A stretch of DNA of 64,000 nucleotides from the sequence record NC_048205.1; one strand, 5' to 3'. How positions within the stretch are numbered: the first letter of the stretch is position 1; each line of letters opens with the position of its first letter. The notes under the pieces were generated by a model, which saw only the letters and a list, made by a program, of their open reading frames with translations, made no database searches and was not told where the DNA came from. A program made the position numbers and the translations under genes. This document shows, piece after piece, positions 3,241 through 32,762 of the stretch. The stretch comes from Escherichia phage vB_Eco_mar004NP2.

Positions 3241-3483
3241 TTACGATTCCTTGAGCAAAGAAGCAAGTTCAGCATAGACTTTATCTAATTCAAAGCCGAT
3301 GCGAAGAGACACGTTTGTTTTCCGTTGTTTAAGTAACCACTCGGATATGTTAGGGATGCCAGCTAATCTAGCAGGAACCACCCTACATAGCTTTTCCGAA
3401 GTATCGTAAACAGGAACTTTACGCTCTTTTACTGGGAACTTCCTTGTTTCCCATTTTTTATTCTTCACTGTCATTTCTAGCAC
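3241..3483 (-). CDS. hypothetical protein
   Basis: ORF overlapping end of upstream gene; weak RBS. Confidence 0.45.
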   Translation of the reverse strand: MLEMTVKNKKWETRKFPVKERKVPVYDTSEKLCRVVPARLAGIPNISEWLLKQRKTNVSLRIGFELDKVYAELASLLKES

Positions 3484-6247
3484 CTAGCTCTGCCATTGCT
3501 TCATCATGCATATGTTTCTCCTCATCAGTCATAAACTTATAAGGAATTGGCATACACTCGATTTTACAATAGGTTCTGTACCAGTCTACAATATTTTCAG
3601 TGTTCATATCCTTACCAATACCCATCATACCAAGATACATTCTAGCATATTTTGGGTTAGCACTCTGACCTGTTTTAAGGAAGAAGTCCTTCTTCTTACC
3701 TTTCAGAGCTTCTATGAATGGTTTGATAGTGACGTTTGAACACTTCTTAATATCTTCCCAAAACATCTCGTGCATTTTATGGAAGAATGCCGCTCGATCA
3801 TTAGGTTTATCCTTGATATATTGTTCAACATGCTCAACTGTTACATCTTTAATAGACTCAAGATGATAATAGCGAACAAGAAGTAGTTTAGCTTCATACG
3901 CATCCGCATGACGTGGAGCACAATAATCAGGAGTTGAATGTAGAATAGCTTTGATTCGCTCTTCCATATATTCTTTCCCTGCACCTTCAATAGTTCCCCA
4001 GCTTTCGCTGAAAATATCAATAGTTGCACCCTGATCAAGCAAGTAATAACGTAAAGTACTAGTATAATTTCTAGATTCCAGCTCTCTACGACGTGCATAT
4101 AATTGCTGTGCTAACTCCAGCCAGCCCTCATCAATATTATATTGTTCAGAACCTGCAGAGAATCCACTCGTAGATTTATCAATAAAATAATAGATATTCT
4201 GAGCACCACGGTCGCGCCTGATTGCTTGAAAACGCATGTTTGGAGCTTGGTTACTGGTTCTAGTAATAACGAATACGTTATCAAAATAGTTAAAGTCAAC
4301 TCCACTCGTTACGGATGGACTACATAATAAGCAATCAATTTGTTGATCAATCAGCTCATTAGTTGTGTAATCCAGAATACGTCTAATATCCACATCAGAC
4401 GTAGAATTTGAGTGGATTTCCTTAACTAACGCACCCGTATTACGACGTAATGCCATACCCTTCTCATTCAGCTCATCAGGGCCACAATCAGATACCAGAA
4501 TAGATTTCTCACCCATCTCTAGAGAAGTCTGAAGTGCAACCCAAATACTGGATTCATCAGGAAACTCATAAGCATGAGCTTTTGACAGCATTTTACGGTG
4601 ATGATTATAAAATGCAACCGGTTTATCAAACTCGATCAAAGAACCATATGCTTCAATTGTTTCTGCACTAATATCACCATCTGATAATATAATGATTTTT
4701 GCAGTTGCAAGAATATCCCGAAGAACCTGAATACATTCACGACGTTGTTTAACAACCGGGGCGAATAATAGGTCGTTCATTACTGCATCACATTCATCGA
4801 TAAAGATTGCATCAATTTGACCAATAAAACTCTTGAACTTATGCAAAGAGTGAATAGTTGTGGACATACGGTCAATAGCACCACGCTTAAAATTAAGCAT
4901 ATCTACAGACTTATCATATTGTCCTGCACTAAATTTCTTAGCATTGGAAGATACCAGTGCTCGAGTATTGGTAATTGCTAAGAAATTACCTTTAATAACT
5001 CCTGAATCTAACCAACGCACAACCGCTGTAGTTTTACCTGTACCTAGACTCGCTTTTACAAAAGTCATATAACCTTCTGGTGGCACAGTATTTAATTTCA
5101 AGAAGTTATCAGTCTCTAAAGAGTTAGTTTCTAGCTTTTTGAGTGGAATACCTTTTAAAACATCCGGTATATCACGTTTAGAATTATTAACAAATGCTTT
5201 TAGAGCCTGTTTACGACCATTATTAAAGTAGTCTTGAATATTACGACTATTATCTTTAGTTGCAATATATTCTGATAAGGCTGGACGGATTTCTTTTTCT
5301 AGCCATGCAAAATCAACACCATCCTCTAAAGCCCTGTGATAGAGTTTAGGAATAATACGTAGATACACTCCATCCTCAGCTTCTTCTAGTTCGCTGATGG
5401 TTTCTTCTACTTTATCAGAGGCAGCTTTTTTACCCTTAATTTGGTCGAGTAAAGAGTAGAACTCTTCTTTAAACTCACCTCTAGTTGTTTCATAGTCAAC
5501 CAGATTATTGGGTAAATTTACTTTAGAACCCTTAACAAATACCAGACGTGAAGCACCCTCCGCTTTAAACGGATCTACTATACCATCGGTAAATAACGGA
5601 TCTGCAAAATAATGGAGCTGTACGGAAGAGTAATAAGCTAAGTCGGCAATATCAAAGCCATACTTTTGTCTACTACTTTCGTTGATAGATGTAAATAAGA
5701 ATTTGATTTGACCCTGAGTTACTTTAACATTAGATTCTAGTATTAAGTGCATTCGGATACCTGGTTTTAGCCCAGCCGAAGACGATGCATGAGCGATAAA
5801 CCCTGCATCAAGAGGAAACATATCCTCACTAATACTATTTAACATTCTAATAATATGTCGAGCCATGCCAACAAGATCAAACTTGTTACAACCACCTGTA
5901 TCTACAATACCATCCACATCCATTGCAATTATATGACTTGGGTTAGATACATTAAAGTTGCCCTTCTTACGTCGCACATTATTTTTAGGTGCAAGACATC
6001 GACCTCGTACCGCAACGATATGAGGGTCAGACGTTAAACGTCTCATAAGAGGAAGCATTTCTACTAGGGTTTGAGGATCAACTTCGTCAATTACATCAAA
6101 CTTGAAGGGCATTGAAGCTGGTTTACCTTCAGGATGCTTTGAGGAAAATCTTTTAGCAAAAAGATAATCTTCTGCTTTAACTTCTCGCCAATTGCCTGTG
6201 GCTAAATCGCGATGAAATCCTGCATGACCTTGTAGGATTGAAAACAC
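3458..6247 (-). CDS. putative replication primase/helicase (P-loop NTPase)
   Basis: Walker A GTGKTT, DECD Walker B-like, helicase-like motifs; track ORF extends to 6325 (TTG) but GTG at 6247 has AGGAG RBS 7 nt upstream. Confidence 0.6.
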   Translation of the reverse strand: MFSILQGHAGFHRDLATGNWREVKAEDYLFAKRFSSKHPEGKPASMPFKFDVIDEVDPQTLVEMLPLMRRLTSDPHIVAVRGRCLAPKNNVRRKKGNFNVSNPSHIIAMDVDGIVDTGGCNKFDLVGMARHIIRMLNSISEDMFPLDAGFIAHASSSAGLKPGIRMHLILESNVKVTQGQIKFLFTSINESSRQKYGFDIADLAYYSSVQLHYFADPLFTDGIVDPFKAEGASRLVFVKGSKVNLPNNLVDYETTRGEFKEEFYSLLDQIKGKKAASDKVEETISELEEAEDGVYLRIIPKLYHRALEDGVDFAWLEKEIRPALSEYIATKDNSRNIQDYFNNGRKQALKAFVNNSKRDIPDVLKGIPLKKLETNSLETDNFLKLNTVPPEGYMTFVKASLGTGKTTAVVRWLDSGVIKGNFLAITNTRALVSSNAKKFSAGQYDKSVDMLNFKRGAIDRMSTTIHSLHKFKSFIGQIDAIFIDECDAVMNDLLFAPVVKQRRECIQVLRDILATAKIIILSDGDISAETIEAYGSLIEFDKPVAFYNHHRKMLSKAHAYEFPDESSIWVALQTSLEMGEKSILVSDCGPDELNEKGMALRRNTGALVKEIHSNSTSDVDIRRILDYTTNELIDQQIDCLLCSPSVTSGVDFNYFDNVFVITRTSNQAPNMRFQAIRRDRGAQNIYYFIDKSTSGFSAGSEQYNIDEGWLELAQQLYARRRELESRNYTSTLRYYLLDQGATIDIFSESWGTIEGAGKEYMEERIKAILHSTPDYCAPRHADAYEAKLLLVRYYHLESIKDVTVEHVEQYIKDKPNDRAAFFHKMHEMFWEDIKKCSNVTIKPFIEALKGKKKDFFLKTGQSANPKYARMYLGMMGIGKDMNTENIVDWYRTYCKIECMPIPYKFMTDEEKHMHDEAMAELGARNDSEE

Positions 6248-6746
6248 AACAATACTCCTGTGTTGGAAATGAAATAAGTTTTCTTTAGGACTATTCAGAA
6301 AGAATAGAACAACTGTTACTGTCAATTTCTCAACAAATTAATCGCAAATACTGAAGTGGGGTGGCAACTTCCACTTTCACGCTGCGCTGCTGCTTTGCTA
6401 TACCGCACAAATCCTTGAGGATGGCCGCTAAGCCAGATTTGCTCACCTAATGCTTCATATACTAGCTCATACTAGATGCAATATAACTTACAGAATCACG
6501 TCTCGGAGTTTTTCACTCCTCCCGTCTCACTTCACAACCACCTCTATCTAGGTTGCTTCGAGGCCTTACCAGGGTTCCTACGGGACGCAGATCGCTAAGT
6601 ATTCTATTAACTATTTGTTTAAAAACTAACACGTAACAGTTAAAACAACCCTTAATGGGGCAGCCTAACTGTTCCGTATCGCGGATTGTAAACAAGAAAA
6701 ATTAGCAAAATCAATTTTTACTAATGTCTCTCAATTCAATATAAAT

Positions 6747-6775
6747 ATTATATCAAGATTTTGAGCACCATGCAA
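6747..6775 (-). promoter_or_regulatory. T5-type early promoter (minus strand) with about 400-nt leader before primase/helicase gene
   Basis: -35 TTGCAT / 17 bp / -10 TATAAT. Confidence 0.55.
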
Positions 6776-6866
6776 GTAAATTTTTCCCAAAGGTGCTATC
6801 AGTGTCTTTGAGTACAGAGAAAACCGAGCCAAAATGACTCGGTAATCAGAGTTCAGCTAGTAAAAA

Positions 6867-7259
6867 TCATTCATCATTTAGGCCTGGAACATAAATCCCA
6901 ACACGGTTTAATTGTTCTTTAGCTTCTTTGAGAATATCTGGAGTGTACTCCCAAATATCATCTTTCACCTGTAAAAGATGGGGCGAACAACCGTCATCAG
7001 GCACACGACATATGGCAAAACCACGTGGATGGAACAAAGAGAAATTTAGGGAAACAATTAAACCCATAGAGGACAATTCATTCCAGTCCATCTCCCATTC
7101 CCCGGCATATCCAGACAGGAAAACGCCAGTGCAGGGATCATCTATTTGCTGCTCTGGAAAAGTGAAGGAGGCTTGCTTTACCCCCAACCAACGTTGTAGC
7201 AGCTTCTCAGCACGCTTCACCAAACTAGGATCAATCTGACGCCAATATACTTGTTCCAT
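6867..7259 (-). CDS. hypothetical protein (paralog of 7269-7697)
   Basis: AAGGAGG RBS; shares W.EL..MGL...LN..LF.P and C-terminal G(I/Y).(V/I)PGL with neighbour. Confidence 0.65.
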   Translation of the reverse strand: MEQVYWRQIDPSLVKRAEKLLQRWLGVKQASFTFPEQQIDDPCTGVFLSGYAGEWEMDWNELSSMGLIVSLNFSLFHPRGFAICRVPDDGCSPHLLQVKDDIWEYTPDILKEAKEQLNRVGIYVPGLNDE

Positions 7260-7268
7260 TCTGCCTCC

Positions 7269-7697
7269 TTAAGCAGTTAAACCTGGGATCATATACCCGA
7301 AACGGCGAAGTTTCTGAATCCCCTCATTCACCTCTTCCGGTGAGTAAGACCAACCATAACGTTCATTAACCTGAAAACCAGGAGATTCACTAGTTTTATA
7401 GTTAACAACTAGGCGATGCTTAGCAGGCATAAACAGCTTATAGTTTAACGCAAAAACTAAGCCCATTTCGTCTAACTCTTTCCAGCCCACAATCTCTTCA
7501 AGACCATCCTCTACCTGCACAATTAAACCAATACAGGGGGCCTCATCAATATCATCCTTAAAAGCAAAGGAGATTTCGTTATTCTCACACCATATTTTCA
7601 AAGAGTTAATAGCCTCATTATACAGGCTAGCTGGGAGAGTACGCCAAAAGTTAACCAAAATTGGGTTAGCTTCTTTAGAGAATACATTATTGAACAT
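7269..7697 (-). CDS. hypothetical protein (paralog of 6867-7259)
   Basis: AAGGTG RBS; paralogous to adjacent ORF. Confidence 0.65.
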   Translation of the reverse strand: MFNNVFSKEANPILVNFWRTLPASLYNEAINSLKIWCENNEISFAFKDDIDEAPCIGLIVQVEDGLEEIVGWKELDEMGLVFALNYKLFMPAKHRLVVNYKTSESPGFQVNERYGWSYSPEEVNEGIQKLRRFGYMIPGLTA

Positions 7698-24558: not shown

Positions 24559-24630
24559 GCCGTCCTAGTATAATTGGTATTATCAAGCCGTAACTGGTGG
24601 AAGATGTAGGTTCGAATCCTACGGTCGGTA
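24559..24630 (+). pseudogene. tRNA-like element lacking a foldable anticodon arm (possible tRNA pseudogene)
   Basis: Acceptor-like pairing GCCGTCC/GGTCGGT and perfect T-arm GTAGG-TTCGAAT-CCTAC but no anticodon stem; no CCA. Confidence 0.3.
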
Positions 24631-25132
24631 AGAACTGGATAACTGATGCTTTTAACGTAAAAGCTTCCGAGGTTAGTTGCGCACTGCCTAAACCACGCGG
24701 TAGTTGGTTCCAGACTAACCAACCAGTCTGCTGAATAGTTTTATTACGATTTAACTATGCCCAGGCTAAAGAAGAACTTTAGAAGGTATTCTAGGGTAGT
24801 GAAGTTCTTTCTCCATATCGGAGTAGTTTTTCAAGCTATCCACAAAGTGGGAAATGCTGACATGAGAGATGTCACTAATGGTGCACAATAGCACAGGTAA
24901 TTCGCGATAACTCCTGTTGAGTAGCAGCAAAAGGTGGGAAGTCATGACCCCAAGCCTAACCGAGTCCTCAATATACCGCAGGACATAACCACTAAGTCAC
25001 CCTGACTTAAACTGGAAAATAATAGACGTTACCGTATTTTGTCTTGAAATACTTAATGAGTGAGACTTATGACTCTCCCGGTATCGTCTGTATTTTTAAG
25101 AGTTTTTACGAGAGTTCTTAAAAATACTTAAA

Positions 25133-25207
25133 CGGGGTGTAGTCTAAGGGATAGGCAGGAGTCTTCTAAATTCCTTTATGCAGGTTCGAATCCTGTCACC
25201 TCGGCCA
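25133..25207 (+). tRNA. tRNA-Arg (anticodon TCT)
   Basis: Hand-folded: acceptor CGGGGTG/CACCTCG, AC loop CTTCTAA, T-loop TTCGAAT, encoded CCA. Confidence 0.7.
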
Positions 25208-25241
25208 ATTTTATTAACTGTAACTAAAACAAAGGAAATAT

Positions 25242-26189
25242 ATGTTTAATACTAAAAATATGAAAGAACTAACTTCTGAGCAGAAAGTAATTCGTACTAT
25301 TAAACGTTGGGGGATTGGTGCTGTAGTTGGTTTAGCAGGTTTAATCCTAGCTTTTAATTCATATACTATTGTTTCTGATGGTACGGTTAAAACCCAAACA
25401 TTTCTTGGTAAAGTAGATCCTAACCCAGTATTACCTGGTTTCCATCCTGTAAACCCATTTGCATCTTTCGATACTTTTAGTACAAAAGATATTGCTGTAA
25501 AATTAGATAAACTTCAGGTTCCTAGCCAGGATAAGTTTAAATCCACTGTTGACCTGACTGTTATGTTGCAGTTTGATGGTTCTAAGGCACCGATTAACCG
25601 TATTAATGCAGGTACTCAGGATCAAGCATTAGACAAATATGTAACTGAAAAATTACTGTCTACTATTCGTGAGTTTGGTAAGTCTGTACCTAAAGCACAA
25701 GATTTATTTGATGCTAAAATTCAGGCTCAATTGCAAACTGCAATTCAACAGGAAGTTGAAGAGTATGCACGCCCATATGGCTACACAGTTAAGCAGGTGT
25801 TTCTTCAGGATATTACTTTGCCACCAGTAATCATGGAACAGGTACAGAATACCAAAGTTCGTGAAGAGCAAGTTAATGCTGCAAAAGCTGAACTGGCTCG
25901 CGTTGAACAAGAAGCTCAGCAGAAAGTTAAACAAGCAGAAGCAGACCGTGAAGCTCGTAATAACCAAGCTATTGCTAACGAACGCGACGCAGATGCTAAA
26001 CTGTACGCAGCTAAGAAAGAAGCTGAAGCTAACGCCGCGCTGCAACGTACCATTACTCCTGAGATGATTCGCTGGAAGCAACTAGAAGTTGAAATGATTC
26101 GTGCTCAGAAGTATCAAGGTGGTGTACCGCAGACTGTGGTTGGCACTGGTTACGATGGCCAGATGATTATGGATATGCGTAATAAGTAA
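25242..26189 (+). CDS. SPFH/band-7 (HflC/prohibitin-like) membrane protein
   Basis: N-terminal TM helix plus coiled-coil Ala/Glu/Lys-rich C-terminus; AAGGAAA RBS. Confidence 0.55.
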   Translation: MFNTKNMKELTSEQKVIRTIKRWGIGAVVGLAGLILAFNSYTIVSDGTVKTQTFLGKVDPNPVLPGFHPVNPFASFDTFSTKDIAVKLDKLQVPSQDKFKSTVDLTVMLQFDGSKAPINRINAGTQDQALDKYVTEKLLSTIREFGKSVPKAQDLFDAKIQAQLQTAIQQEVEEYARPYGYTVKQVFLQDITLPPVIMEQVQNTKVREEQVNAAKAELARVEQEAQQKVKQAEADREARNNQAIANERDADAKLYAAKKEAEANAALQRTITPEMIRWKQLEVEMIRAQKYQGGVPQTVVGTGYDGQMIMDMRNK

Positions 26190-26213
26190 TATCCACGCGT
26201 AATATTCGAAGTA

Positions 26214-26248
26214 AGCCCTGTGTTTCCTGGAGAGCGCAGGGCTTTTCT
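26214..26248 (+). terminator. rho-independent terminator after SPFH gene
   Basis: Hairpin GCCCTG...CAGGGC followed by TTTTCTG. Confidence 0.6.
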
Positions 26249-26286
26249 GTATAATGTATTTATACAACTAACTAGGGGATCAAATA

Positions 26287-26805
26287 ATGACTGTTGATGA
26301 ACTAACAGAACATCTCTTATCTAGAGGGTTTGATACAGATAAATATCACTGCTGGCTAAGCCCAGAAGGATGGCTAACAGTCCCATTGTATGACTTCTCT
26401 GGGATGTTGAGAGGCTATCAGACTTATAATCCTTCTGCTCCAAAAGGTCATGGTAAACGCCCCTTTGAAGCTAGATATTTTACTTATTCTACTACACAGT
26501 GTGTATGGGGACTAGAAACTCTCAATGGAGACGAAAAAGTAGTATTGATTGCTGAATCTGTATTTAAGGCAGTTGCGTTACATAACGCTGGTTATCCAGC
26601 CCTGGCAATGTTGGGTTCTTCCCCCGGAAAAGCGTTGTTAAAGCAATTGAAATTACTACCTTTTAAATTGGTAGCTGTTGGGGATAATGATCCTGCTGGT
26701 GAAAAATTTGCTAGACAATTAAATGGATTTGTTTCTCCTGTAGATGTGGATGAGATGTCTACCGAAAACTTGAAAAATTTTCTTGCTATGAAGCTAAATT
26801 TCTAA
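26287..26805 (+). CDS. Toprim-domain protein (putative)
   Basis: VVLIAESVFKA and VAVGDNDPAGEKFA resemble Toprim E and DxD motifs. Confidence 0.45.
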   Translation: MTVDELTEHLLSRGFDTDKYHCWLSPEGWLTVPLYDFSGMLRGYQTYNPSAPKGHGKRPFEARYFTYSTTQCVWGLETLNGDEKVVLIAESVFKAVALHNAGYPALAMLGSSPGKALLKQLKLLPFKLVAVGDNDPAGEKFARQLNGFVSPVDVDEMSTENLKNFLAMKLNF

Positions 26806-26811
26806 TATAAT
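26783..26811 (+). promoter_or_regulatory. T5-type promoter driving tRNA-Ser/tRNA-CAT
   Basis: -35 TTGCTA / 17 bp / -10 TATAAT. Confidence 0.55.
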
Positions 26812-26826
26812 ATATTTATAAATTCG

Positions 26827-26914
26827 GAAGAATAGCATAACGGTATTGCAGCAGATTGCTAATCTGTCGGTTTGAAATATAGCCTTGTGGGTTCGATTCC
26901 CACTTCTTCCGCCA
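26827..26914 (+). tRNA. tRNA-Ser (anticodon GCT), type II
   Basis: Acceptor GGAAGAA/TTCTTCC, AC loop TTGCTAA, long variable arm, CCA encoded. Confidence 0.7.
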
Positions 26915-26920
26915 AATTCT

Positions 26921-26998
26921 GGTTCTCAAGCTCATATGGTATGAGCACCCGGCTCATAACCGGAAGGTACGTAGGTTCGAATCCTCGGGGAGCCACCA
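26921..26998 (+). tRNA. tRNA with CAT anticodon (Met, fMet or Ile2)
   Basis: AC loop CTCATAA; acceptor with two G-U pairs; T-stem imperfect. Confidence 0.5.
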
Positions 26999-27214
26999 AC
27001 TTAATTAGGGGATTACAAGTGGAATTATACATAGTTTATGTTGTGTTTATTCAAGATAGAGAATACCCTGATGAATATAAAAAAGGATATAGGTTAGCCA
27101 GAGCTACTTCTGAAGCCCAAGCTATGGATAAAGTGGCAGATTATATGCTTACAGTAGAAAACGTACACTACATCGACTACCTTGAAGCCTCAAAAGTAAT
27201 TGACTAAACTACAC

Positions 27215-27291
27215 GGGGGTGTAATCGAATTGGCATAGGTACTGGACTTAAAATTCAGGTTTTGTGGGTTCGAATCCCACCACCCCTACCA
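27215..27291 (+). tRNA. tRNA-Leu-like, anticodon TAA, type-I length
   Basis: AC stem CTGGA/TTCAG, loop CTTAAAA; Leu-type D-arm (3 bp stem, GAATTGGCATA loop); 5-nt variable loop; A73; CCA. Confidence 0.5.
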
Positions 27292-27466
27292 AATTAAGGA
27301 AATAAGATGTATAGACACCCACCTCCGCCAACACGTCGTTCTAGAGAAGTTATCCTCATGGAATTGACTAAAAACTTCAAGGCAACTCTTGAGGATAGAG
27401 ATTTAGGCACGGATGAAGACATTGATTTTATTTGTAGACTATTAAAGATGAAACTGGAGAAACAAC

Positions 27467-27673
27467 ATGGCTAATCCTGAAATTACCATGCAACGATTCA
27501 TGGCTAAAGGCATGATAGCTGAGGCAGGAATTGAACAAGAAGTAAAAAGTTATTACGAACAGATTAAGGGTATTGTAGACTCGGCTAAAAACACCGGAGA
27601 AAAAGAACATGGTGCGGCAATTATGGCTATAACTCTTATTAGTCTAGACTTGGCCGAAGAATCTGGAGTTTAG
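27467..27673 (+). CDS. hypothetical protein
   Basis: ORF with GGAG RBS. Confidence 0.5.
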   Translation: MANPEITMQRFMAKGMIAEAGIEQEVKSYYEQIKGIVDSAKNTGEKEHGAAIMAITLISLDLAEESGV

Positions 27674-27703
27674 CTCCTCCAAACAGAATTTTTAAAAATG
27701 TAC

Positions 27704-27733
27704 TTGCCTTTTGCCTTAAATTTCTGATATAAT
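27704..27733 (+). promoter_or_regulatory. T5-type early promoter
   Basis: -35 TTGCCT / 18 bp / -10 TATAAT. Confidence 0.5.
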
Positions 27734-27763
27734 AATTATATAAATTGATGGAGGAGTTAACGA

Positions 27764-28039
27764 ATGCAAAATCGTGTTGTAGCAACTGGTATTGAAAGTG
27801 CAATCTGTAAATCCTGGGAAGGCTGGGAAGGTGAGATTGAATGGCTTTATTTCTATGATGTAGAACTTCTACCGGAAGTTAAAGCTAAATGTATTGAAGC
27901 TGGCATGGCTCCAGATGCAAAAGCTGATATTGATATTTTAATGTCTGAACTTAAAGGTCGTGTAGTTACCGTTAGTAATGAGGGCGAAGAAGTTTTCGAA
28001 CTTCCGTTTTCCTTAACTGTCACTCCTAAGTTCGACTAA
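27764..28039 (+). CDS. hypothetical protein
   Basis: ORF with GGAGGAG RBS and promoter. Confidence 0.6.
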   Translation: MQNRVVATGIESAICKSWEGWEGEIEWLYFYDVELLPEVKAKCIEAGMAPDAKADIDILMSELKGRVVTVSNEGEEVFELPFSLTVTPKFD

Positions 28040-28075
28040 CTAATACAGCACTGAGCAAGTTCTTTAAAATTTGAC

Positions 28076-28104
28076 TTGCTCAGTGCCTTAAAACTTGATA
28101 TAAT
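28076..28104 (+). promoter_or_regulatory. T5-type promoter driving the tRNA-Tyr/Glu/Trp/Phe block
   Basis: -35 TTGCTC / 17 bp / -10 TATAAT. Confidence 0.55.
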
Positions 28105-28121
28105 AGTTATCTAATTCGGAA

Positions 28122-28170
28122 ACATATTTAAAAGTGTTTAAACTAGTATTTGAATACTTTTAAATATGTT
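28122..28170 (+). other. 15-bp-stem palindrome immediately upstream of and overlapping the tRNA-Tyr 5' end
   Basis: AACATATTTAAAAGT ... ACTTTTAAATATGTT perfect inverted repeat. Confidence 0.6.
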
Positions 28171-28258
28171 GGATTAGTATCGTAGAGGTAGCGAAGCAGA
28201 CTGTAAATCTGCCGACTCGGAAGGGTCTCGGGTGGTTCGACTCCATCATCCAACACCA
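28168..28258 (+). tRNA. tRNA-Tyr (anticodon GTA), type II
   Basis: Acceptor GTTGGAT/ATCCAAC, AC loop CTGTAAA, long variable arm, CCA. Confidence 0.7.
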
Positions 28259-28265
28259 AATTTAA

Positions 28266-28342
28266 GTCCTGTTAGACAAACTGGTAAAGTCACTACCCTT
28301 TCAAGGTAGGGTTTGCGGGTTCGATCCCCGCACAGGACCCCA
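28266..28342 (+). tRNA. tRNA-Glu (anticodon TTC)
   Basis: Acceptor GTCCTGT/ACAGGAC, AC stem CTACC/GGTAG loop CTTTCAA, T-loop TTCGATC. Confidence 0.7.
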
Positions 28343-28351
28343 ATTAATAAT

Positions 28352-28422
28352 TGGGGTACGCATAGGTTGCAAATGGGCCTCCAAAACCCATGAAAAGGTT
28401 TCGAATACCTTTACCCCTGCCA
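28352..28422 (+). tRNA. tRNA-Trp (anticodon CCA), short D-arm
   Basis: AC loop CTCCAAA, perfect T-arm AAGGT/ACCTT, 3' end CCCCTGCCA; U1-U72 mismatch and short D region. Confidence 0.5.
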
Positions 28423-28428
28423 AAATTT

Positions 28429-28503
28429 GCACCTTTAGCTGAGATGGATTAGCGCTTGCCTGAAGAGCTTGAGAGGTTCGTTCGATACGAACAGGGTGCA
28501 CCA
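28429..28503 (+). tRNA. tRNA-Phe (anticodon GAA), tentative
   Basis: Acceptor GCACCTT/AGGGTGC, D-arm GCTG/TAGC, AC loop CTGAAGA with weak stem, T-arm GTTCG/CGAAC. Confidence 0.5.
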
Positions 28504-28520
28504 AATTGAAGGAGATGCTG

Positions 28521-28790
28521 ATGCATCCTGAAAACTTCTTTATTTACTGCGCGGATAAGTCGCTGAAACGTAGAATTAACAAAGTCTATCATTATCGTGT
28601 TAGTCAACAGCCTTATGTATACGCTTTTGACGGTGATCACATTTCATTAGAACAATTATCTTGTGATTACATGATATTGAAGAACTTTGACGAGACGAAG
28701 ATCTCAAGCGTTCACAATCGACAGAATCCATTAACGTGGAAATATAAGAAAAAGAAAGGCATCAAATTCTTAAAAAATGTAGTTGCTTAG
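28521..28790 (+). CDS. hypothetical protein
   Basis: ATG 6 nt after AAGGAG; begins right after tRNA-Phe. Confidence 0.5.
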   Translation: MHPENFFIYCADKSLKRRINKVYHYRVSQQPYVYAFDGDHISLEQLSCDYMILKNFDETKISSVHNRQNPLTWKYKKKKGIKFLKNVVA

Positions 28791-28811
28791 TTTCCAAAAG
28801 TTCTGTATAAT
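28783..28811 (+). promoter_or_regulatory. T5-type early promoter
   Basis: -35 TTGCTT / 17 bp / -10 TATAAT. Confidence 0.6.
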
Positions 28812-28840
28812 AAATACATAAATTGAACTGGAGAAGCAAC

Positions 28841-29059
28841 ATGACAGAACAAGAATTGAATGAACGTAAGCTAGTAATGCTTCGCTTACTAAATATTTTC
28901 TCTGGTATGGACGGTGGTGGTGATTTCTTAAGACTTAAGGTATTTACAGAAACTGCCGAAGGTGATGCAATCTCTAGAGTTATTAGGAACATGGGAAGCC
29001 TGCTAGATGTGGCTGGAGTAGCTACTCAATACACCTTAGATAATCCTACTGGAGAATAA
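28841..29059 (+). CDS. hypothetical protein
   Basis: ATG at 28841 with GGAGAAG RBS and promoter. Confidence 0.55.
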   Translation: MTEQELNERKLVMLRLLNIFSGMDGGGDFLRLKVFTETAEGDAISRVIRNMGSLLDVAGVATQYTLDNPTGE

Positions 29060-29251
29060 ATGAGAAGATTAGTTAGATTTAAGTGTTGTAGTTCTGAACA
29101 TATTTTCACACATCTTCGTGAATTTAAAATGTGTGATTGTGGTAAATCAGGCTATGACTCTGGAAATGGGTTCTACACCCGTACTCTAGGGAACTTCAAT
29201 GATTTAGAATTTGAAGATCTCGAAAAACAAGATAAACCGACCGTTGGCTGA
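29060..29251 (+). CDS. hypothetical Cys-rich protein
   Basis: CC...CDC motif; 3' end overlaps tRNA-Cys. Confidence 0.45.
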   Translation: MRRLVRFKCCSSEHIFTHLREFKMCDCGKSGYDSGNGFYTRTLGNFNDLEFEDLEKQDKPTVG

Positions 29252-29313
29252 ATGGCTTAGGCGAAGGATTGCAAATCCTTTTTATGTGAGTTCAAATCTC
29301 ATGCGGTCGTCCA
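29238..29313 (+). tRNA. tRNA-Cys (anticodon GCA)
   Basis: AC stem AAGGA/TCCTT loop TTGCAAA; T-loop TTCAAAT; CCA; overlaps 3' end of upstream ORF. Confidence 0.7.
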
Positions 29314-29334
29314 AATTACTAAAGGAAAGAAGTA

Positions 29335-29853
29335 GTGCATACAAAAGTTTTTGATAGTTTGGTAAAGAAAGGCGTTGTTACTAACGAGCCCTTCTATATA
29401 ACCGCAGAACTAATCCAGAGATTTATGGAAGAATATATAAATCTTTCAGGAACCAATGGTAATACCAAAAAGAATACAAATACTATGTATTCGAGAAAAC
29501 TTGCTGCACTTTCCTTTATAAAGTTTAAGCAGGAAAATAAACTTCCTATTTCTGAAGGTTTTGTATACTGTATTAGTAATCCTGCATGGAAAAATCAGTA
29601 TAAAATAGGTATGAGTCAAAATCCAAAAGAGAGATTAGCTCAATATCAGACTTATTCCCCTTATAGGGATTATAAGTTAGAGCATTGGTCTTTTTGGTTT
29701 GACAAACGAAAAGGTGAAAAACTAATTCACCAGTATTTCAAAGATTTAAAAGAACATGAGTGGTTTAGTATAAATTCTAGGGATCTTAGTAAATATCTAG
29801 AACGTATTAACTCTAGTTCTGACTTATATGGTTCCTTAGCTCTAATTGGTTAG
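29335..29853 (+). CDS. T5orf172-domain protein
   Basis: 172 aa; GFVYCISNPAWKNQYKIGMSQNPKERL matches the T5orf172 family signature as recalled; GTG start after AAAGGAAAG; 3' end overlaps next tRNA. Confidence 0.6.
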   Translation: MHTKVFDSLVKKGVVTNEPFYITAELIQRFMEEYINLSGTNGNTKKNTNTMYSRKLAALSFIKFKQENKLPISEGFVYCISNPAWKNQYKIGMSQNPKERLAQYQTYSPYRDYKLEHWSFWFDKRKGEKLIHQYFKDLKEHEWFSINSRDLSKYLERINSSSDLYGSLALIG

Positions 29854-29908
29854 AGCGGCATCTTGTTAAGTTGAGGGTTGCTGGATTCGAATCCAGCAGG
29901 AACCGCCA
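29830..29908 (+). tRNA. tRNA-Asn (anticodon GTT), tentative
   Basis: Acceptor GGTTCCT/AGGAACC, D-arm GCTC/GAGC; weak AC stem; T-loop one nt longer than canonical. Confidence 0.45.
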
Positions 29909-30010
29909 AATTCTGTGTAGAGTTAAGTAAACCGGTAGCCAACCAGCTATCATTGCTGACATCGAATTCAGCCATAGATACCATTTTCGTTAATAACTGA
30001 GGAAACAAGC

Positions 30011-30196
30011 ATGTCCAAGAATGTAATTGCGCAGCTAGAAGTTCATCGTGATAGCACTATCAACAATATTGAAGTTGAGAAGAAATACATAGAAGAACTT
30101 AAACATGATATACTGGTAAGTCTCAACCGTCTTAATGTACGAAAAGAGTTTCTTAAAGAACTTAATGCAGCTATTGAAAAACTCAAAGCTGAGTAA
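30011..30196 (+). CDS. hypothetical protein
   Basis: ORF with GAGGAAA RBS. Confidence 0.5.
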   Translation: MSKNVIAQLEVHRDSTINNIEVEKKYIEELKHDILVSLNRLNVRKEFLKELNAAIEKLKAE

Positions 30197-30205
30197 ATGA
30201 ATTAT

Positions 30206-30282
30206 GCGACCGGGGCTGGCTTGGTAATGGTACTCCCCTGTCACGGGAGAGAATGTGGGTTCAAATCCCATCGGTCGCGCCA
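30206..30282 (+). tRNA. tRNA-Asp (anticodon GTC)
   Basis: Acceptor GCGACCG/CGGTCGC, AC stem CTCCC/GGGAG loop CTGTCAC, T-loop TTCAAAT. Confidence 0.75.
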
Positions 30283-30299
30283 AATAAGGTAGGTTAGCT

Positions 30300-30458
30300 A
30301 TGGAACGTAGGGAGTTTACTCCAGAAGAGATAGAGCAGATAAAAGAATCTGCTATGAAAAATGCTAGAATATCTCTGTCACTGGAAGGTATCATTATTAG
30401 TGATGTAAACTTTGAAAAAATCAAAGCCATAGCTGATGAACTGGAAAAAGTAATTTAA
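30300..30458 (+). CDS. small hypothetical protein (52 aa)
   Basis: Unlisted ORF MERREFTPEEIEQIK... with AAGGTAGG RBS between two tRNAs. Confidence 0.4.
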   Translation: MERREFTPEEIEQIKESAMKNARISLSLEGIIISDVNFEKIKAIADELEKVI

Positions 30459-30459
30459 T

Positions 30460-30535
30460 ACATCCATAGCTCAATGGTTAGAGCTACCGCCTCTTAAGCG
30501 GAGGGTTCTAGGTTCAAGTCCTAGTGGGTGTACCA
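30460..30535 (+). tRNA. tRNA-Lys (anticodon CTT)
   Basis: D-arm GCTC/GAGC, AC loop CTCTTAA, T-arm CTAGG/CCTAG. Confidence 0.6.
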
Positions 30536-30561
30536 AATTAAACTAGCACGAGAAATATGCT

Positions 30562-30909
30562 ATGATTAATGCTAAAGAAGAATTGTTACTTGCCCTAAAG
30601 AATACTAATTCTGAAGTTAAGTGTATTAAGATAGAATTCGGTTATTATGGGGATAAAGAAGTTTGGGTATTACCCGTAGGTTATACAGAAAAAGATATTG
30701 AAGATTTTCTAGATAATCTAGACTTTAAATATGATTCTGGTTTCGGCGGACAATTGCTTTATGGTAACGTATGGTTTACCGATGGAACTTGGTTAGAACG
30801 TGGTGAATATGATGGTTCTGAATGGTGGGAATATAAGACTACACCAGCAATCCCAGAAGAATGCCGAACAATTAATGGTGAAGTAGATCGTACTTTACTA
30901 TTAAATTAA
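30562..30909 (+). CDS. hypothetical protein
   Basis: 115-aa ORF, weak RBS. Confidence 0.5.
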   Translation: MINAKEELLLALKNTNSEVKCIKIEFGYYGDKEVWVLPVGYTEKDIEDFLDNLDFKYDSGFGGQLLYGNVWFTDGTWLERGEYDGSEWWEYKTTPAIPEECRTINGEVDRTLLLN

Positions 30910-31031
30910 CAAAATTTCAGTGCAGAACACGGAGCTAGCAATTCGGAAGTGCTGACTCATGATAAGCTGCCTATGTACTTGCGAAGCGGTCGTGTCCAAG
31001 ACTCGGACTCTTGCACTGAAAACAATCAAAC

Positions 31032-31152
31032 ATTCTAGCGTGGTTGATGGGGAAACCAGCTTGGCGAGGGCAGAAGCTCGTTCGATTCGAGTGAAAGAAT
31101 GGTTCTCGTAAGTCCGCACAAGTGATAACAGGTTCGAGTCCTGTCTAGAATG
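31032..31152 (+). ncRNA. 121-nt tRNA-like structured RNA (extra arms between acceptor and T-arm)
   Basis: Perfect 7-bp acceptor ATTCTAG/CTAGAAT, D-like hairpin TGGTT/AACCA, perfect T-arm ACAGG-TTCGAGT-CCTGT, internal extra hairpins. Confidence 0.3.
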
Positions 31153-31301
31153 ACACTATAAAGTTTACTTATTATGTAGGTTCCGATAGACCGGCGGGTC
31201 TATTCTAGCATTTAAGAGAGGTCTCGCAAACTTCTTTGTCAGCCGTGGGGTTGGTAGCCTCCAGGTGGCCTACACAATAAGTAAATTTATTAAAAATTCA
31301 T

Positions 31302-31330
31302 TTGCTATTCTGCTTTATTATCTGTATAAT
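31302..31330 (+). promoter_or_regulatory. T5-type early promoter
   Basis: -35 TTGCTA / 17 bp / -10 TATAAT. Confidence 0.6.
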
Positions 31331-31362
31331 ATATTTTATAAAGTGAAGAGAAGGAAAGCAAA

Positions 31363-31521
31363 ATGAAACACAAGATAGCTCAAGTTTTTATGGCATTATG
31401 GTGTATACCAATAGCTATAACAGCATTTAATCTAGATACTTTTACTATAGAAGAAAAATGTATCGGATTAGTTAGCGGTTTTAGTATGCTGGGCTTATCT
31501 TTGCTGTGGTTAAAGAAATAA
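31363..31521 (+). CDS. small hydrophobic protein (52 aa)
   Basis: Unlisted ORF MKHKIAQVFMALWCIPIAI... with strong RBS after promoter. Confidence 0.45.
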   Translation: MKHKIAQVFMALWCIPIAITAFNLDTFTIEEKCIGLVSGFSMLGLSLLWLKK

Positions 31522-31525
31522 TATT

Positions 31526-31603
31526 CTCCGTGTAGCTCAGTTTGGCCAGAGCGTTTCGTTTGGGGCGATAGGGTCGGGGGTTCAAATCCTCCCACGGAGA
31601 CCA
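31526..31603 (+). tRNA. tRNA-Pro (anticodon TGG)
   Basis: Acceptor CTCCGTG/CACGGAG, AC loop TTTGGGG, T-loop TTCAAAT. Confidence 0.7.
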
Positions 31604-31609
31604 AACAAT

Positions 31610-31687
31610 TGCGGGTTAGATCTCTGGTAGAGATCGCTAGTCTCATAAGCTAGAAAGAGGTAGGTTCGATTCCTGCACCCGCTTCCA
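31610..31687 (+). tRNA. tRNA with CAT anticodon (Met, fMet or Ile2)
   Basis: D-arm GATC/GATC, AC stem CTAGT/GCTAG loop CTCATAA; U1-U72 mismatch. Confidence 0.6.
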
Positions 31688-31707
31688 CTTTAATAGAGGA
31701 TTTCGAA

Positions 31708-31875
31708 ATGAAAGTATTTCGATTAGTAGTAAGTGACAAACGTTTAGGTAAGAATACCTCAAAATCCTTACTTGCTCATTATGGAAAAGATGATAAAGAA
31801 GTAATGGCGGAGTTTGGGATTAATCACCCTTACTTGAAAGTTCACTCTATTAAAGAAGTATATAATGGTTACTAA
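31708..31875 (+). CDS. small hypothetical protein (55 aa)
   Basis: Unlisted ORF with AGAGGA RBS between tRNAs. Confidence 0.4.
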   Translation: MKVFRLVVSDKRLGKNTSKSLLAHYGKDDKEVMAEFGINHPYLKVHSIKEVYNGY

Positions 31876-31876
31876 T

Positions 31877-31955
31877 AGATCGCTAGCTCAATAGGTTTAG
31901 TAGCATCCGACTTTTAATCGGAAGGTTCTGGGTTCGAGTCCCAGGCGATCTACCA
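31877..31955 (+). tRNA. tRNA-Lys (anticodon TTT)
   Basis: Acceptor AGATCGC/GCGATCT, AC stem TCCGA/TCGGA loop CTTTTAA, T-arm CTGGG/CCCAG. Confidence 0.75.
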
Positions 31956-31973
31956 ATTTCAAGAAAAACGCAG

Positions 31974-32002
31974 TTGCTTGATACTTAATTTCTTGTTATA
32001 AT
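31974..32002 (+). promoter_or_regulatory. T5-type early promoter followed by hairpin and untranslated segment
   Basis: -35 TTGCTT / 17 bp / -10 TATAAT. Confidence 0.6.
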
Positions 32003-32240
32003 ATTTATATAAATTGATGAGGATTTCTCCTCATCATAGTTCACTAAGGTATTAGCTCGACCTAGGACTGGCTGCCAAAAAGCACGATCCCTACGATTCG
32101 GGAGGAGTTCTAGATTAGTCCACTAGATTCAGCGGCAACTGAATAGTGTATTGGGTTTGCGAGATGACGCGGTTCCTTCCGCTCGAAGCGAAGGTGCTGT
32201 AGTTACGCCGAGCTAATAGCCTTAGTAAACTAAAGAATTT

Positions 32241-32319
32241 GGGGGATGGGTCTGCTAGGGGTGGACACCTCGCTTGCACCGAGGACATCAGAACGATTCG
32301 AATTCGTTATCCTCCACCA
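32241..32319 (+). tRNA. tRNA-Ala (anticodon TGC)
   Basis: AC stem CCTCG/CGAGG loop CTTGCAC; G3-U70 pair present; 7-nt variable loop. Confidence 0.6.
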
Positions 32320-32324
32320 AATAC

Positions 32325-32401: not shown

Positions 32402-32526
32402 AATTTGATGGTCAGAGTAAATTAAACCTACTATCTCGGTTGAGCTGTTTTAATGGGTTCGAATCCCAGCGAGGCGTAACTGCCTGGTGTGATAGAGGCA
32501 TCATTCCACTAACATTGGAAAAACTA

Positions 32527-32757: not shown

Positions 32758-32762
32758 TACTT

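What the first reader, a model, noticed from the sequence alone, without database searches (positions are those of the whole stretch)
6326..6866. 540-bp GC-richer leader between promoter and primase/helicase gene
The minus-strand promoter at 6747-6775 lies about 400 nt upstream of the putative primase/helicase start, with no convincing ORF in between (the 60-aa frame at 6513-6695 lacks an RBS). The leader is visibly less AT-rich than surrounding intergenic DNA and could be a regulatory structure or small RNA.
Basis: seen in the sequence. Interest (0 to 1): 0.4.

Follow-up and report, generated by a model that had tools for sequence, protein, structure and literature searches.

The report
Large structured leader RNA, T5-like phages
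The long gap in front of the replication helicase gene D2 of this T5-like phage encodes a large, intricately folded RNA about 490 nt long, conserved across the T5 phage family and matching no Rfam family or paper I could search; its function is not known.

Summary
The window is a T5-like phage (Demerecviridae). Between a terminator (6843-6823) plus a strong sigma-70 promoter (6775-6747) and the D2 helicase gene lies a 619-bp spacer with no conserved ORF. The true D2 start is GTG 6247, not TTG 6325. The transcribed leader (about 6740-6248, minus strand) is a conserved structured RNA. It has a 5' hairpin, an ultraconserved unpaired 25-nt motif, a roughly 38-bp irregular long-range "rod", a roughly 240-nt multi-helix "head" (GC 0.50 against 0.39 for the genome) and a 3' hairpin.

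Two independent alignments each show 47-48 base pairs with compensatory changes, against 11-13 in shuffles (0/500) and 9-17 in slid controls. Ten helices occur in 4-8 different complementary versions across T5-like, Yersinia, Klebsiella and Pectobacterium phages and one further unidentified lineage (L045). The head exists in two barely alignable sequence types (41% identity) with the same architecture, between flanks that are 97-100% identical.

There is no Rfam match and no homolog outside Demerecviridae, and D2 always lies downstream. Function is inferred, not shown. I favour a cis-acting RNA module of the D2 mRNA (a protein-binding or processing element). The rivals are a stand-alone ncRNA and a replication-priming transcript.

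The parts
6813..6843 (-). Intrinsic terminator of the upstream operon (stem ACCGAGTCA/TGGCTCGGT followed by a T-run). It isolates the leader-D2 transcription unit.
   Evidence: T5 record annotates the same site
6747..6775 (-). Sigma-70 early promoter: TTGCAT, 17-nt spacer with extended -10 (TG), TATAAT. The inferred transcription start is near 6740.
   Evidence: sequence; homologous promoter annotated in T5 and AKFV33. In phages with an HNH gene inserted upstream a different promoter is used, and conservation begins right at about +1.
6693..6733 (-). P1: 5'-terminal hairpin of the transcript (leader nt 8-48).
   Evidence: Kept as a hairpin with different sequences in Klebsiella, Pectobacterium and Serratia phages. 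U.G to U-A change in L020.
6655..6679 (-). Motif A (GAUACGGAACAGUUAGGCUGCCCCAU, leader 62-86): the most conserved block of the leader. No covariation-supported pairing partner was found.
   Evidence: Invariant in the T5-like phages and identical at all but one base in L045 and My1; near-identical in Klebsiella phages. Local pairings show no covariation (helix 4).
6598..6642 (-). Rod, 5' strand (leader 99-143). It pairs with 6310-6353 to form an irregular long-range helix of about 38 bp (P2-P6).
   Evidence: Perfect 9-nt inverted repeat 6633-6641/6311-6319 (I18). G-C to G-U to A-U series in T5 and SH9. Completely different complementary sequences in phiR201, L045, My1 and Klebsiella phages. Helices 5-6.
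6354..6597 (-). Head domain (leader 144-387), GC 0.50. P7x/P7 is the closing helix with a conserved 2-nt bulge. Inside are Pa enclosing Pb; the Pc hairpin; the P11-P12-P10 junction carrying hairpin PL with an invariant loop UUAGCG (6423-6434); and hairpin P8 (6354-6376).
   Evidence: Clean double compensatory changes among phages about 97% identical (P7 CUGCG/CGCAG to CUACA/UGUAG; Pa CCCGU/ACGGG to CCCAU/AUGGG; Pc GGAG/CUCC to AGAG/CUCU; P8 GUGG/CCAC to GGGG/CCCC). 4-8 complementary variants per helix across lineages. Statistics.
6310..6353 (-). Rod, 3' strand (leader 388-431).
   Evidence: as for the 5' strand
6291..6307 (-). P9 hairpin (CUAUUC UUUCU GAAUAG). It has no U-tract, so it is not a terminator.
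   Evidence: Covaries: CUAUC/GAUAG in Klebsiella phages, CUUUCC/GGAAAG in L045. Not reported as a terminator.
6248..6290 (-). Variable A/U-rich linker followed by the SD AGGAG (6255-6259). No conserved structure covers the ribosome-binding site.
   Evidence: Only 50-55% identity between the two types in the linker, while the SD and start are conserved.
3458..6247 (-). D2 gene (929 aa; GTG start): the T5 bipolar SF2 helicase, annotated as 'replication origin binding protein'.
   Evidence: Pfam Herpes_ori_bp at aa 394-533; PHROG 3712 full length; same domain position as reported for T5 D2 (PMC3632103).

Best explanation
The spacer encodes the roughly 494-nt 5' leader of the early D2 helicase mRNA, and this leader is itself a functional, highly structured RNA.

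Shown:
- It lies behind a strong promoter and an upstream terminator.
- It has no conserved ORF.
- It folds, on the transcribed strand only, into a 5' hairpin, a single-stranded ultraconserved motif, a long-range rod, a multi-helix head and a 3' hairpin.
- Compensatory evolution maintains this fold throughout the enterobacterial Demerecviridae.
- D2 always lies directly downstream.

Inferred (my preferred mechanism): it acts in cis on the D2 message as a protein-binding and/or processing module. A phage protein, possibly D2 itself or another early replication protein, would bind the invariant unpaired elements: Motif A, the UUAGCG loop and the bulged P7. The rod may serve as an endonuclease (RNase III-type) processing stalk. 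Together these would set the stability and yield of D2 mRNA, and so the timing or dose of the replication initiator helicase. The RNA does not work like a classical riboswitch or attenuator, because no conserved structure touches the ribosome-binding site and there is no terminator.
For: Identity and setting: the window is 100% identical to Salmonella phages SPLA5b and PMBT29 over 6200-6900, and 522 T5-like records match. Terminator and promoter.

Structure:
- The sense-strand core folds at -100.1 kcal/mol (z -3.26, 0/100 shuffles). The antisense strand gives -76.5 (z -1.83).
- About 17% of pairs are G.U, which would be A.C mismatches on the other strand.
- Covariation, window-type alignment A4: 48 pairs changed on both sides against 10.6 +/- 2.7 in shuffles (0/500) and 11-14 when the partner is slid; 94.2% of cells paired against 33-46%.
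- Covariation, T5-type alignment A5: 47 against 13.2 +/- 2.5 (0/500), slid 9-17.
- Ten helices each occur as 4-8 different complementary sequences at homologous positions in seven lineages.
- The constrained fold costs only 3-7 kcal/mol relative to the free MFE.

Selection: leader nt 1-108 are 100% identical and nt 422-460 are 97% identical between the window and T5. Adjacent D2 coding DNA is 84-88% identical, and the head is 41% identical.

Linkage to D2:
- All 8 metagenome hits to a two-motif pattern are T5-like or Klebsiella-phage-like leaders. D2 follows in the six loci that extend far enough to show it.
- A long non-coding gap precedes D2 in Yersinia, Klebsiella, Pectobacterium and Serratia phages.
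- Vibrio T5-like phages have a roughly 700-nt gap with a similar long-range AACUG helix.

No coding potential.
Against: - No transcript data were available; the transcription start, RNA ends and any processing are inferred.
- No expression platform was found. The linker to the SD is variable and unstructured, so cis-regulation of translation has no visible mechanism.
- The rod is much less regular in Klebsiella phages (short P2 plus local hairpins), which weakens a universal RNase III stalk.
- D2 protein sequence does not obviously co-vary with the head type, so there is no sign of protein-RNA specificity pairing with D2.
- The strict adjacency to D2 could simply reflect the way I found most loci (through D2), although the motif-based scans were independent of D2.
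Confidence: 0.45

Rival explanations
1. A stand-alone non-coding RNA. The head (about 240-330 nt) is excised from the primary transcript, for example by cleavage in the rod, much as rRNA or T7 early RNAs are cut out of long-range stems. It then acts in trans as a ribonucleoprotein scaffold, a decoy for a host factor or defence system, or a catalyst. D2 merely shares its promoter.
For: - The architecture, a long stem formed by the flanks enclosing a compact GC-rich multi-helix domain, resembles a processing stalk.
- No conserved structure touches the RBS, and the linker is variable.
- Invariant loops and bulges suggest ligand or protein contacts.
- Two ancient head 'alleles' exchanged between conserved flanks would fit an arms-race target.
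- The size and complexity are comparable to large phage-associated ncRNAs (from knowledge of GOLLD and ROOL).
Against: - No evidence of processing or accumulation.
- The RNA is never found away from D2.
- The most conserved block (Motif A) lies outside the stalk.
- The rod is irregular in Klebsiella phages.
Confidence: 0.25
2. A transcription-dependent replication origin. The promoter-driven, structured transcript forms an R-loop or primer, as ColE1 RNA II, T4 ori(uvsY)/ori(34) or the T7 primary origin do. This happens next to the gene for the putative initiator helicase D2. Motif A and other invariant blocks would be DNA or RNA sites for D2.
For: - D2 has been proposed as the T5 replication initiator helicase, related to the herpesvirus origin-binding protein UL9 (PMC3632103; Pfam hit).
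- The locus lies at about 48.5% of the T5 genome (59.0 of 121.75 kb). From memory, early electron microscopy (Bourguignon et al. 1976, cited) placed a first-round origin near the middle of the molecule; I could not read that paper.
- A strong promoter is followed by a long untranslated transcript and an AT-rich stretch (GC 0.29) just downstream.
- Motif A is conserved as sequence, not by covariation.
Against: - No iterons or repeated boxes.
- Selection is clearly on strand-specific RNA pairing with many G.U pairs, which a DNA site does not need.
- The head sequence is freely replaceable (41% identity) without a matching change in D2.
- No antisense regulator promoter was found.
Confidence: 0.17
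3. A passive structure only. The long untranslated leader is kept folded simply to protect it from Rho-dependent termination and RNase E, with no specific partner.
For: - A 5'-terminal hairpin and dense folding are what such protection needs.
- The head sequence is highly replaceable.
Against: - This does not explain why a 500-nt leader is kept at all.
- It does not explain the invariant unpaired motifs (Motif A, the UUAGCG loop, the P7 bulge).
- It does not explain the same helix topology being kept in two unalignable head types and in distant subfamilies.
- It does not explain flanks more conserved than the coding DNA.
Confidence: 0.08
4. A small protein gene or a decayed mobile element (MITE-like, with terminal inverted repeats AACTGTTAC/GTAACAGTT).
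For: - A 60-aa ORF at 6513-6695.
- A perfect 9-bp inverted repeat flanks the variable middle.
- HNH homing endonuclease genes insert nearby in some phages.
Against: - The ORF is not conserved and has no SD.
- There is one copy per genome, and none elsewhere in phage, plasmid or E. coli collections.
- Covariation extends over about 150 internal pairs, not just the termini.
Confidence: 0.03

Closest known systems
Large 'ornate' phage-associated non-coding RNAs (GOLLD, ROOL, HEARO; Breaker-lab motif classes in Rfam)
   Same: They run to several hundred nucleotides and have many covariation-supported helices plus invariant loops. They are encoded by phages or prophages, and their function was unknown when they were discovered.
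   Different: No sequence or structure match (Rfam 15 scans). This RNA is in virulent phages of Enterobacteria. It is always the 5' leader of one particular protein gene (D2) rather than a free-standing gene near tRNAs. It also comes in two interchangeable head types.
Primer or activator transcripts at replication origins (ColE1 RNA II; T4 ori(uvsY)/ori(34); T7 primary origin)
   Same: A strong promoter drives a long untranslated, partly structured transcript at a replication locus, with an AT-rich stretch downstream.
   Different: No mapped origin, no R-loop evidence and no antisense RNA I-type partner. The transcript continues into an ORF. The structure is far more elaborate than the T4 or T7 origins require.
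Leader-derived regulatory RNAs of replication operons (phage P4 CI RNA, P1/P7 C4 RNA)
   Same: An RNA embedded in the untranslated leader of the operon that encodes a primase/helicase-type replication protein.
   Different: Those RNAs are about 70-80 nt. They act by antisense pairing to repeated target sites in the same leader and confer immunity in temperate elements. Here there is no C4 family match, no repeated target sites, and the phage is virulent.
Translational operators of phage replication genes (T4 gene 32 pseudoknot, gene 43 operator)
   Same: An RNA structure in the 5' leader of a replication gene, bound by the gene's own product for autoregulation. This is the functional model I favour.
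   Different: Those operators are 20-40 nt and overlap or abut the ribosome-binding site. This element is more than ten times larger and is separated from the SD by a variable linker.
RNase III processing stalks (rRNA precursors, T7 early mRNA R sites)
   Same: Flanking sequences pair over a long range to form an irregular duplex enclosing a structured RNA.
   Different: Cleavage is not shown, and the duplex is interrupted and lineage-variable.

Membership tests
Any Rfam 15 family (4227 models, including riboswitches, T-box, C4/IsrK, 6S, tmRNA, RNase P, group I/II introns, GOLLD, ROOL, HEARO, self-cleaving ribozymes) | Covariance-model score at or near the family's gathering threshold | tested here: not met
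   At the gathering threshold the window yields only tRNAs at 24.5-35 kb. A permissive scan of 6100-7000 gives only chance-level snoRNA-type hits at E 1-9. Nine homologous loci scanned at E<=1 give nothing in the leader.
Bacterial RNase P RNA (considered because of short resemblances: ACAGAAC..CCGGCU, GGCUUAGCGG, AAUAG-U-CC) | Collinear conserved regions CR-I to CR-V and significant similarity to rnpB | tested here: not met
   Local alignment of five leader types to E. coli rnpB scores no better than shuffles (fraction of shuffles >= observed 0.05-0.96). The shared 8-10-mers are not collinear. No Rfam hit.
tRNA / tmRNA | Cloverleaf or tmRNA detected by ARAGORN | tested here: not met
   21 tRNAs, all at 25.1-35.0 kb; none near 6.2-6.9 kb
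Riboswitch / transcription attenuator | A conserved aptamer coupled to an expression platform (an intrinsic terminator, or an RBS-sequestering helix conserved with it) | tested here: not met
   No terminator lies between the promoter and D2. P9 lacks a U-tract. The linker to the SD is variable (50-55% identity) and is not part of any conserved helix. Ligand binding is not testable here.
Conserved structured RNA (generic criterion) | Base pairs maintained by compensatory substitutions beyond phylogenetic or shuffle controls, on the transcribed strand | tested here: met
   (47-48 covarying pairs against 11-13 shuffled, 0/500; slid controls 9-17). (ten helices, 4-8 variants each). (strand asymmetry).
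Protein-coding gene | An ORF conserved in position and frame among relatives, with a start and SD | tested here: not met
   Pfam finds nothing for the 60-aa frame.
Iteron-type or DnaA-box-type replication origin | Repeated binding boxes next to an AT-rich unwinding element | tested here: inconclusive
   No repeat family beyond chance-level two-copy matches. An AT-rich stretch exists at 6248-6309. Origin activity cannot be tested with these tools.
RNase III processing stalk | About 20 bp or more of near-continuous duplex that is cleaved in vivo | not testable with these tools
   A duplex of about 38 bp with small internal loops is predicted and covaries in T5-like, L045 and My1 lineages. It is less regular in Klebsiella phages. 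There are no cleavage data.

The most novel reading that the evidence does not exclude
The element is a previously unrecognised class of large ornate RNA, specific to Demerecviridae, with an activity of its own. One version: it is the missing cis or trans RNA component of T5 replication initiation, an RNA II-like primer or R-loop former or a partner of the D2 helicase, which would mark the long-sought T5 origin. Another version: it is an excised ribonucleoprotein or decoy RNA whose two interchangeable head types reflect an arms race with host defences.
Probability: 0.3. Interest if true: 0.8.

Novelty: new variant of a known kind. Interest (0 to 1): 0.62.

Why it matters
T5 is a classical model phage, and its relatives are widely used in phage therapy and food safety. 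Even so, its replication origin and the control of its replication genes remain poorly defined.

This is a 430-nt RNA in front of the essential D2 helicase gene, under strong compensatory selection and more conserved at its flanks than the neighbouring coding DNA. It matches no Rfam family and appears in none of the papers I could search. It is therefore a concrete new handle on early T5 gene control and replication. It also adds a well-supported candidate to the short list of large structured bacterial and phage RNAs of unknown function.

The two exchangeable head 'alleles' with one architecture form a natural experiment on which parts of the RNA matter.

Tried and rejected
1. Rfam at gathering and permissive thresholds, on the window and on nine homologous loci. 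Nothing was found.

2. The RNase P-like idea (a P4-like pairing of Motif A with AAUAG-U-CCU, plus short shared words). Similarity to E. coli rnpB is not above shuffles, the shared words are not collinear, and the rest of RNase P is absent. Rejected.

3. Small-protein hypothesis. No conserved ORF.

4. Iterons or repeats. Only chance-level two-copy matches.

5. Search for the RNA in other contexts:
   - The single-motif scan of IMG/VR gave mostly chance hits inside coding sequences; only T5-like loci carry both motifs.
   - The two-motif scan of metagenomes gave 8 hits, all T5-like.
   - The genome collection gave 2 chance hits.
   - E. coli genomes and plasmids gave nothing.

6. Co-variation of D2 protein with head type. 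No clear signal.

7. The roughly 100-nt extra module, tested as a possible repeated mobile element. It occurs in one copy per genome and only at this site.

8. mafft-qinsi structural alignment is not installed. A single covariance model of the whole RNA would exceed the tool's size limit, so I used type-wise alignments with named structures instead.

Sequence searches find no domain in D2 residues 1-380, so the 'primase' label remains unverified.

10. Literature. No paper in the held library describes this RNA or a T5 transcriptome. The T5 anti-retron factor Rad is a protein in the tRNA region and is unrelated. The retron-Eco11 trigger is helicase D10, not D2. Bourguignon 1976 is not held.

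Full report
**What the window is.** The region 6200-6900 is 100% identical to Salmonella phages SPLA5b and PMBT29. It matches 522 T5-like phage records at 80-100% identity. The window also carries the typical T5 block of more than 20 tRNA genes at 24.5-35 kb. It is therefore a member of Demerecviridae (Markadamsvirinae), and all genes around the finding are on the minus strand.

**Checking the observation.**
- Read on the minus strand, the upstream gene (a DUF7415 protein, homolog of T5.107) stops at 6867.
- An intrinsic terminator follows at 6843-6823.
- Next comes a near-consensus promoter: TTGCAT at 6775-6770, a 17-nt spacer with an extended -10 TG, and TATAAT at 6752-6747. The curated T5 record annotates a terminator and a promoter at the homologous positions.
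- The big downstream ORF can be extended to TTG 6325. The start used in T5 and Lindwurm, and the only one with a Shine-Dalgarno sequence (AGGAG 6259-6255), is GTG 6247.
- The spacer is therefore 619 bp and the leader about 494 nt. The other gaps in this operon are 36-106 bp.
- GC content is 0.496 in the central 6356-6597. The window overall is 0.39 and the other gaps are 0.20-0.38.
- The 60-aa frame at 6513-6695 has no SD. It is shortened in near-identical phages and absent in other lineages, and no ORF on either strand is conserved.

**The downstream gene.** The 929-aa product has a Pfam Herpes_ori_bp match at residues 394-533 and is a full-length member of PHROG 3712, 'replication origin binding'. 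This is the domain position reported for T5 D2. Wong, Sayers and Sanders characterised D2 as a bipolar SF2 helicase and proposed it as a replication initiation protein (PMC3632103). No domain is detected by sequence in residues 1-380. The 'primase' label in some records is thus unverified, and I could not run a structure prediction on my alignment.

**Conservation pattern.** An alignment of 11 T5-like spacers shows a striking mosaic:
- From about +1 of the transcript, the first 108 nt are 100% identical between the window and T5.
- Leader nt 422-460 are 97% identical.
- The roughly 240 nt in between are only 41% identical, although almost the same length.
- The adjacent D2 coding DNA is 84-88% identical. 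The flanks are thus more conserved than coding sequence, and the centre is effectively a second 'allele'.

In phages with an HNH homing-endonuclease gene inserted upstream, a different promoter is used, and conservation starts exactly at the transcript start. This points to a function of the transcript rather than of the upstream DNA.

A long non-coding gap before D2 is also present in other lineages:

| Phage | Gap before D2 |
|---|---|
| Yersinia phiR2-01 | 712 nt |
| Klebsiella Sugarland-like phages | 598 nt |
| Pectobacterium My1 | 590 nt |
| Serratia Kamaji | 433 nt |
| Two further IMG/VR lineages (L047, L048) | leaders of about 615 nt |

These lineages share islands such as GAACAGUYNGGCUGC, GAUC and CUUAGCGG.

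**Structure.** A perfect 9-nt inverted repeat (6633-6641 / 6311-6319) closes the variable middle. In T5 the central G-C becomes G-U, and in SH9-type phages A-U. In phiR201, L045, My1 and Klebsiella phages the helix is kept with entirely different sequences.

Comparing lineages by eye, and then verifying programmatically, I defined ten helices. Each occurs as 4-8 distinct complementary sequence versions at homologous positions:

| Helix | Role |
|---|---|
| P2 | Base of a roughly 38-bp irregular rod |
| P7x/P7 | Closing helix of the head, with a conserved 2-nt bulge |
| Pa | Head helix enclosing Pb |
| Pc | Hairpin in the head |
| P11 | Part of the P11-P12-P10 junction |
| P10 | Part of the same junction, carrying PL |
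| PL | Hairpin with invariant loop UUAGCG |
| P8 | Hairpin in the head |
| P9 | 3' hairpin, outside the head |

Among phages about 97% identical to the window there are clean double substitutions:

| Helix | Window | Variant | Loci |
|---|---|---|---|
| P7 | CUGCG/CGCAG | CUACA/UGUAG | L017, L025 |
| Pa | CCCGU/ACGGG | CCCAU/AUGGG | L020, L023 |
| Pc | GGAG/CUCC | AGAG/CUCU | L017, L025 |
| P8 | GUGG/CCAC | GGGG/CCCC | L017, L025, L049 |

Metagenomic variants shuffle these haplotypes but always keep the two sides of a pair together.

Folding the window and T5 sequences with these helices enforced costs only 3.4 and 6.9 kcal/mol relative to the unconstrained optimum. It gives the same architecture for both head types.

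**Statistics.** I counted named structures on MAFFT alignments that were not fitted to the structure:

| Alignment | Sequences | Pairs changed on both sides | Shuffled mean | Shuffles reaching observed | Slid partner (1-3 columns) |
|---|---|---|---|---|---|
| A4: window type + L045 + My1 | 14 | 48 | 10.6 +/- 2.7 | 0/500 | 11-14 |
| A5: T5 type + phiR201 + Klebsiella phages | 24 | 47 | 13.2 +/- 2.5 | 0/500 | 9-17 |

- In both alignments 94.2% of cells form standard pairs; the slid controls give 33-46% for A4 and 37-48% for A5.
- About 17% of pairs are G.U.
- The sense-strand core folds at -100.1 kcal/mol (z = -3.26). The antisense strand gives -76.5 kcal/mol (z = -1.83).

Selection therefore acts on a strand-specific single-stranded fold, that is, on the RNA. 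Two predicted helices have no support: the local pairings of Motif A, and a pairing of leader nt 59-65 with the start region (helices 3 and 4).

**Anatomy.** Leader position i corresponds to window coordinate 6741 - i.

| Leader nt | Element |
|---|---|
| 8-48 | P1, 5'-terminal hairpin |
| 62-86 | Motif A, unpaired and ultraconserved |
| 99-143 with 388-431 | Rod |
| 144-387 | Head |
| 434-450 | P9 |
| 451-481 | Variable A/U-rich linker |
| 482-486 | SD |
| 494-496 | GUG start of D2 |

No conserved helix involves the SD or start codon, and there is no terminator.

**Distribution.** There is no Rfam family match in the window or in nine homologous loci. There is no similarity in 5,426 complete E. 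coli genomes or in PLSDB plasmids.

- A single-motif scan of IMG/VR returns mostly chance hits inside coding sequences; only T5-like loci carry both motifs at the right spacing.
- A 22-base two-motif pattern finds 8 metagenome contigs, all T5-like or Klebsiella-phage-like leaders. D2 follows wherever the fetched DNA reaches far enough. It finds 2 matches in 185,579 genomes, both lying in unrelated sequence with no leader features; I estimated about two chance matches for this pattern in that collection.
- Vibrio T5-like phages lack these motifs. They do have a roughly 700-nt non-coding stretch before D2 with conserved islands, a similar long-range AACUG(A/G)U helix, and 37 of 103 predicted pairs with compensatory changes. 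This last point rests on six sequences and an RNAalifold structure, so it is suggestive only.

**What it does.** Nothing here measures function. The facts that constrain it are:
- a strong early promoter of its own;
- obligatory position in front of D2;
- an elaborate fold with invariant unpaired elements;
- no expression platform;
- a freely exchangeable head sequence with fixed topology;
- flanks under extreme constraint.

I favour a cis-acting module of the D2 mRNA that is recognised by a protein and possibly processed in the rod, setting the amount and timing of the replication helicase (confidence 0.45). The known functional analogues are the autoregulatory operators of T4 genes 32 and 43 and the leader-embedded CI RNA of the P4 primase-helicase operon. 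Both are far smaller and work differently.

The rivals are:
- An excised stand-alone RNA (0.25). The stalk-plus-head layout is what processing substrates look like.
- A transcription-dependent origin or primer RNA (0.17). D2 is the putative initiator. The locus sits at 48.5% of the T5 genome. From memory, an early electron-microscopy study placed a first origin near the centre, but I could not read that paper.
- Mere protective folding (0.08).
- A small protein or mobile-element remnant (0.03).

**Comparison with known systems and novelty.** It works like, at most, a large structured leader or ornate phage ncRNA. It is not a member of any curated family: every membership test based on sequence or structure models failed, including a specific check of an RNase P resemblance that turned out to be chance. 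I found no description of it in the searchable literature. Large-scale motif catalogues whose supplements I could not read may still list it. I rate it a new variant of a known kind, namely a new family of large structured phage RNA. The interest is moderate to high because it sits in a classical model phage, next to an essential and poorly understood replication gene.

Noticed in passing
window 6247 vs 6325 (minus strand): The longest ORF of the D2 gene starts at TTG 6325. The conserved SD (AGGAG 6259-6255) and the annotated T5 and Lindwurm starts point to GTG 6247. Several public records extend the CDS, or call small hypothetical ORFs, inside the leader (for example GEC_vB_N3 gp136c/137c, and 'hypothetical protein x4-5' in PMBT29). 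These calls are probably spurious.
   Followed up: partly
L025:955-1060, L011, L038, L049 (no copy in the window): An optional extra module of about 100 nt is inserted right after the P1 hairpin, flanked by a UUUUUCUU direct repeat. It is present in 51 of about 528 T5-like records, in both head types. It always occurs once per genome and only at this site. It contains its own hairpin (GGAUUUACGG...CCGUAAAU).
   Followed up: partly
L003, L004, L008, L010 (homologous to window about 6745-6866): An HNH homing-endonuclease gene is inserted between the upstream terminator and the leader in some phages and brings its own promoter. In vB_SLGBLB0002 the first roughly 40 nt of the leader (P1) are duplicated on both sides of the insert. 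The ultraconserved leader start may be the homing target.
   Followed up: no
window 6685-6714 (minus strand): A second promoter-like site (TTGATT, 18 nt, TACAAT; 9/12 matches) lies inside P1 and just after it. It would start transcription just upstream of Motif A. It is not conserved in Klebsiella or Pectobacterium phages.
   Followed up: no
window 6867-7259 and 7269-7697 (minus strand): Two adjacent paralogous genes, each with two DUF7415 repeats (homologs of T5.106 and T5.107), lie directly upstream. Their function is unknown.
   Followed up: no
L016/L051 1019-1189 (Vibrio phage Achelous gp68): The annotated 56-aa gp68 lies inside the roughly 700-nt conserved non-coding stretch before D2 in Vibrio T5-like phages. 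It has no counterpart in JSF12 or L053, so it is probably not a gene. The JSF12 record was opened (coordinate 1) inside this non-coding region.
   Followed up: partly
window 6354-6376 and 6655-6679: The P8 loop of the window-type head (GUUGCCACCCC) resembles the 3' half of Motif A (GGCUGCCCCAU). The T5-type head has an unrelated P8 loop (UAACUUAU). These could be two copies of one protein-binding site, or coincidence.
   Followed up: no
window 24559-35013 (plus strand): A cluster of 21-23 tRNA genes, typical of T5-like phages. ARAGORN and Rfam differ by two calls.
   Followed up: no
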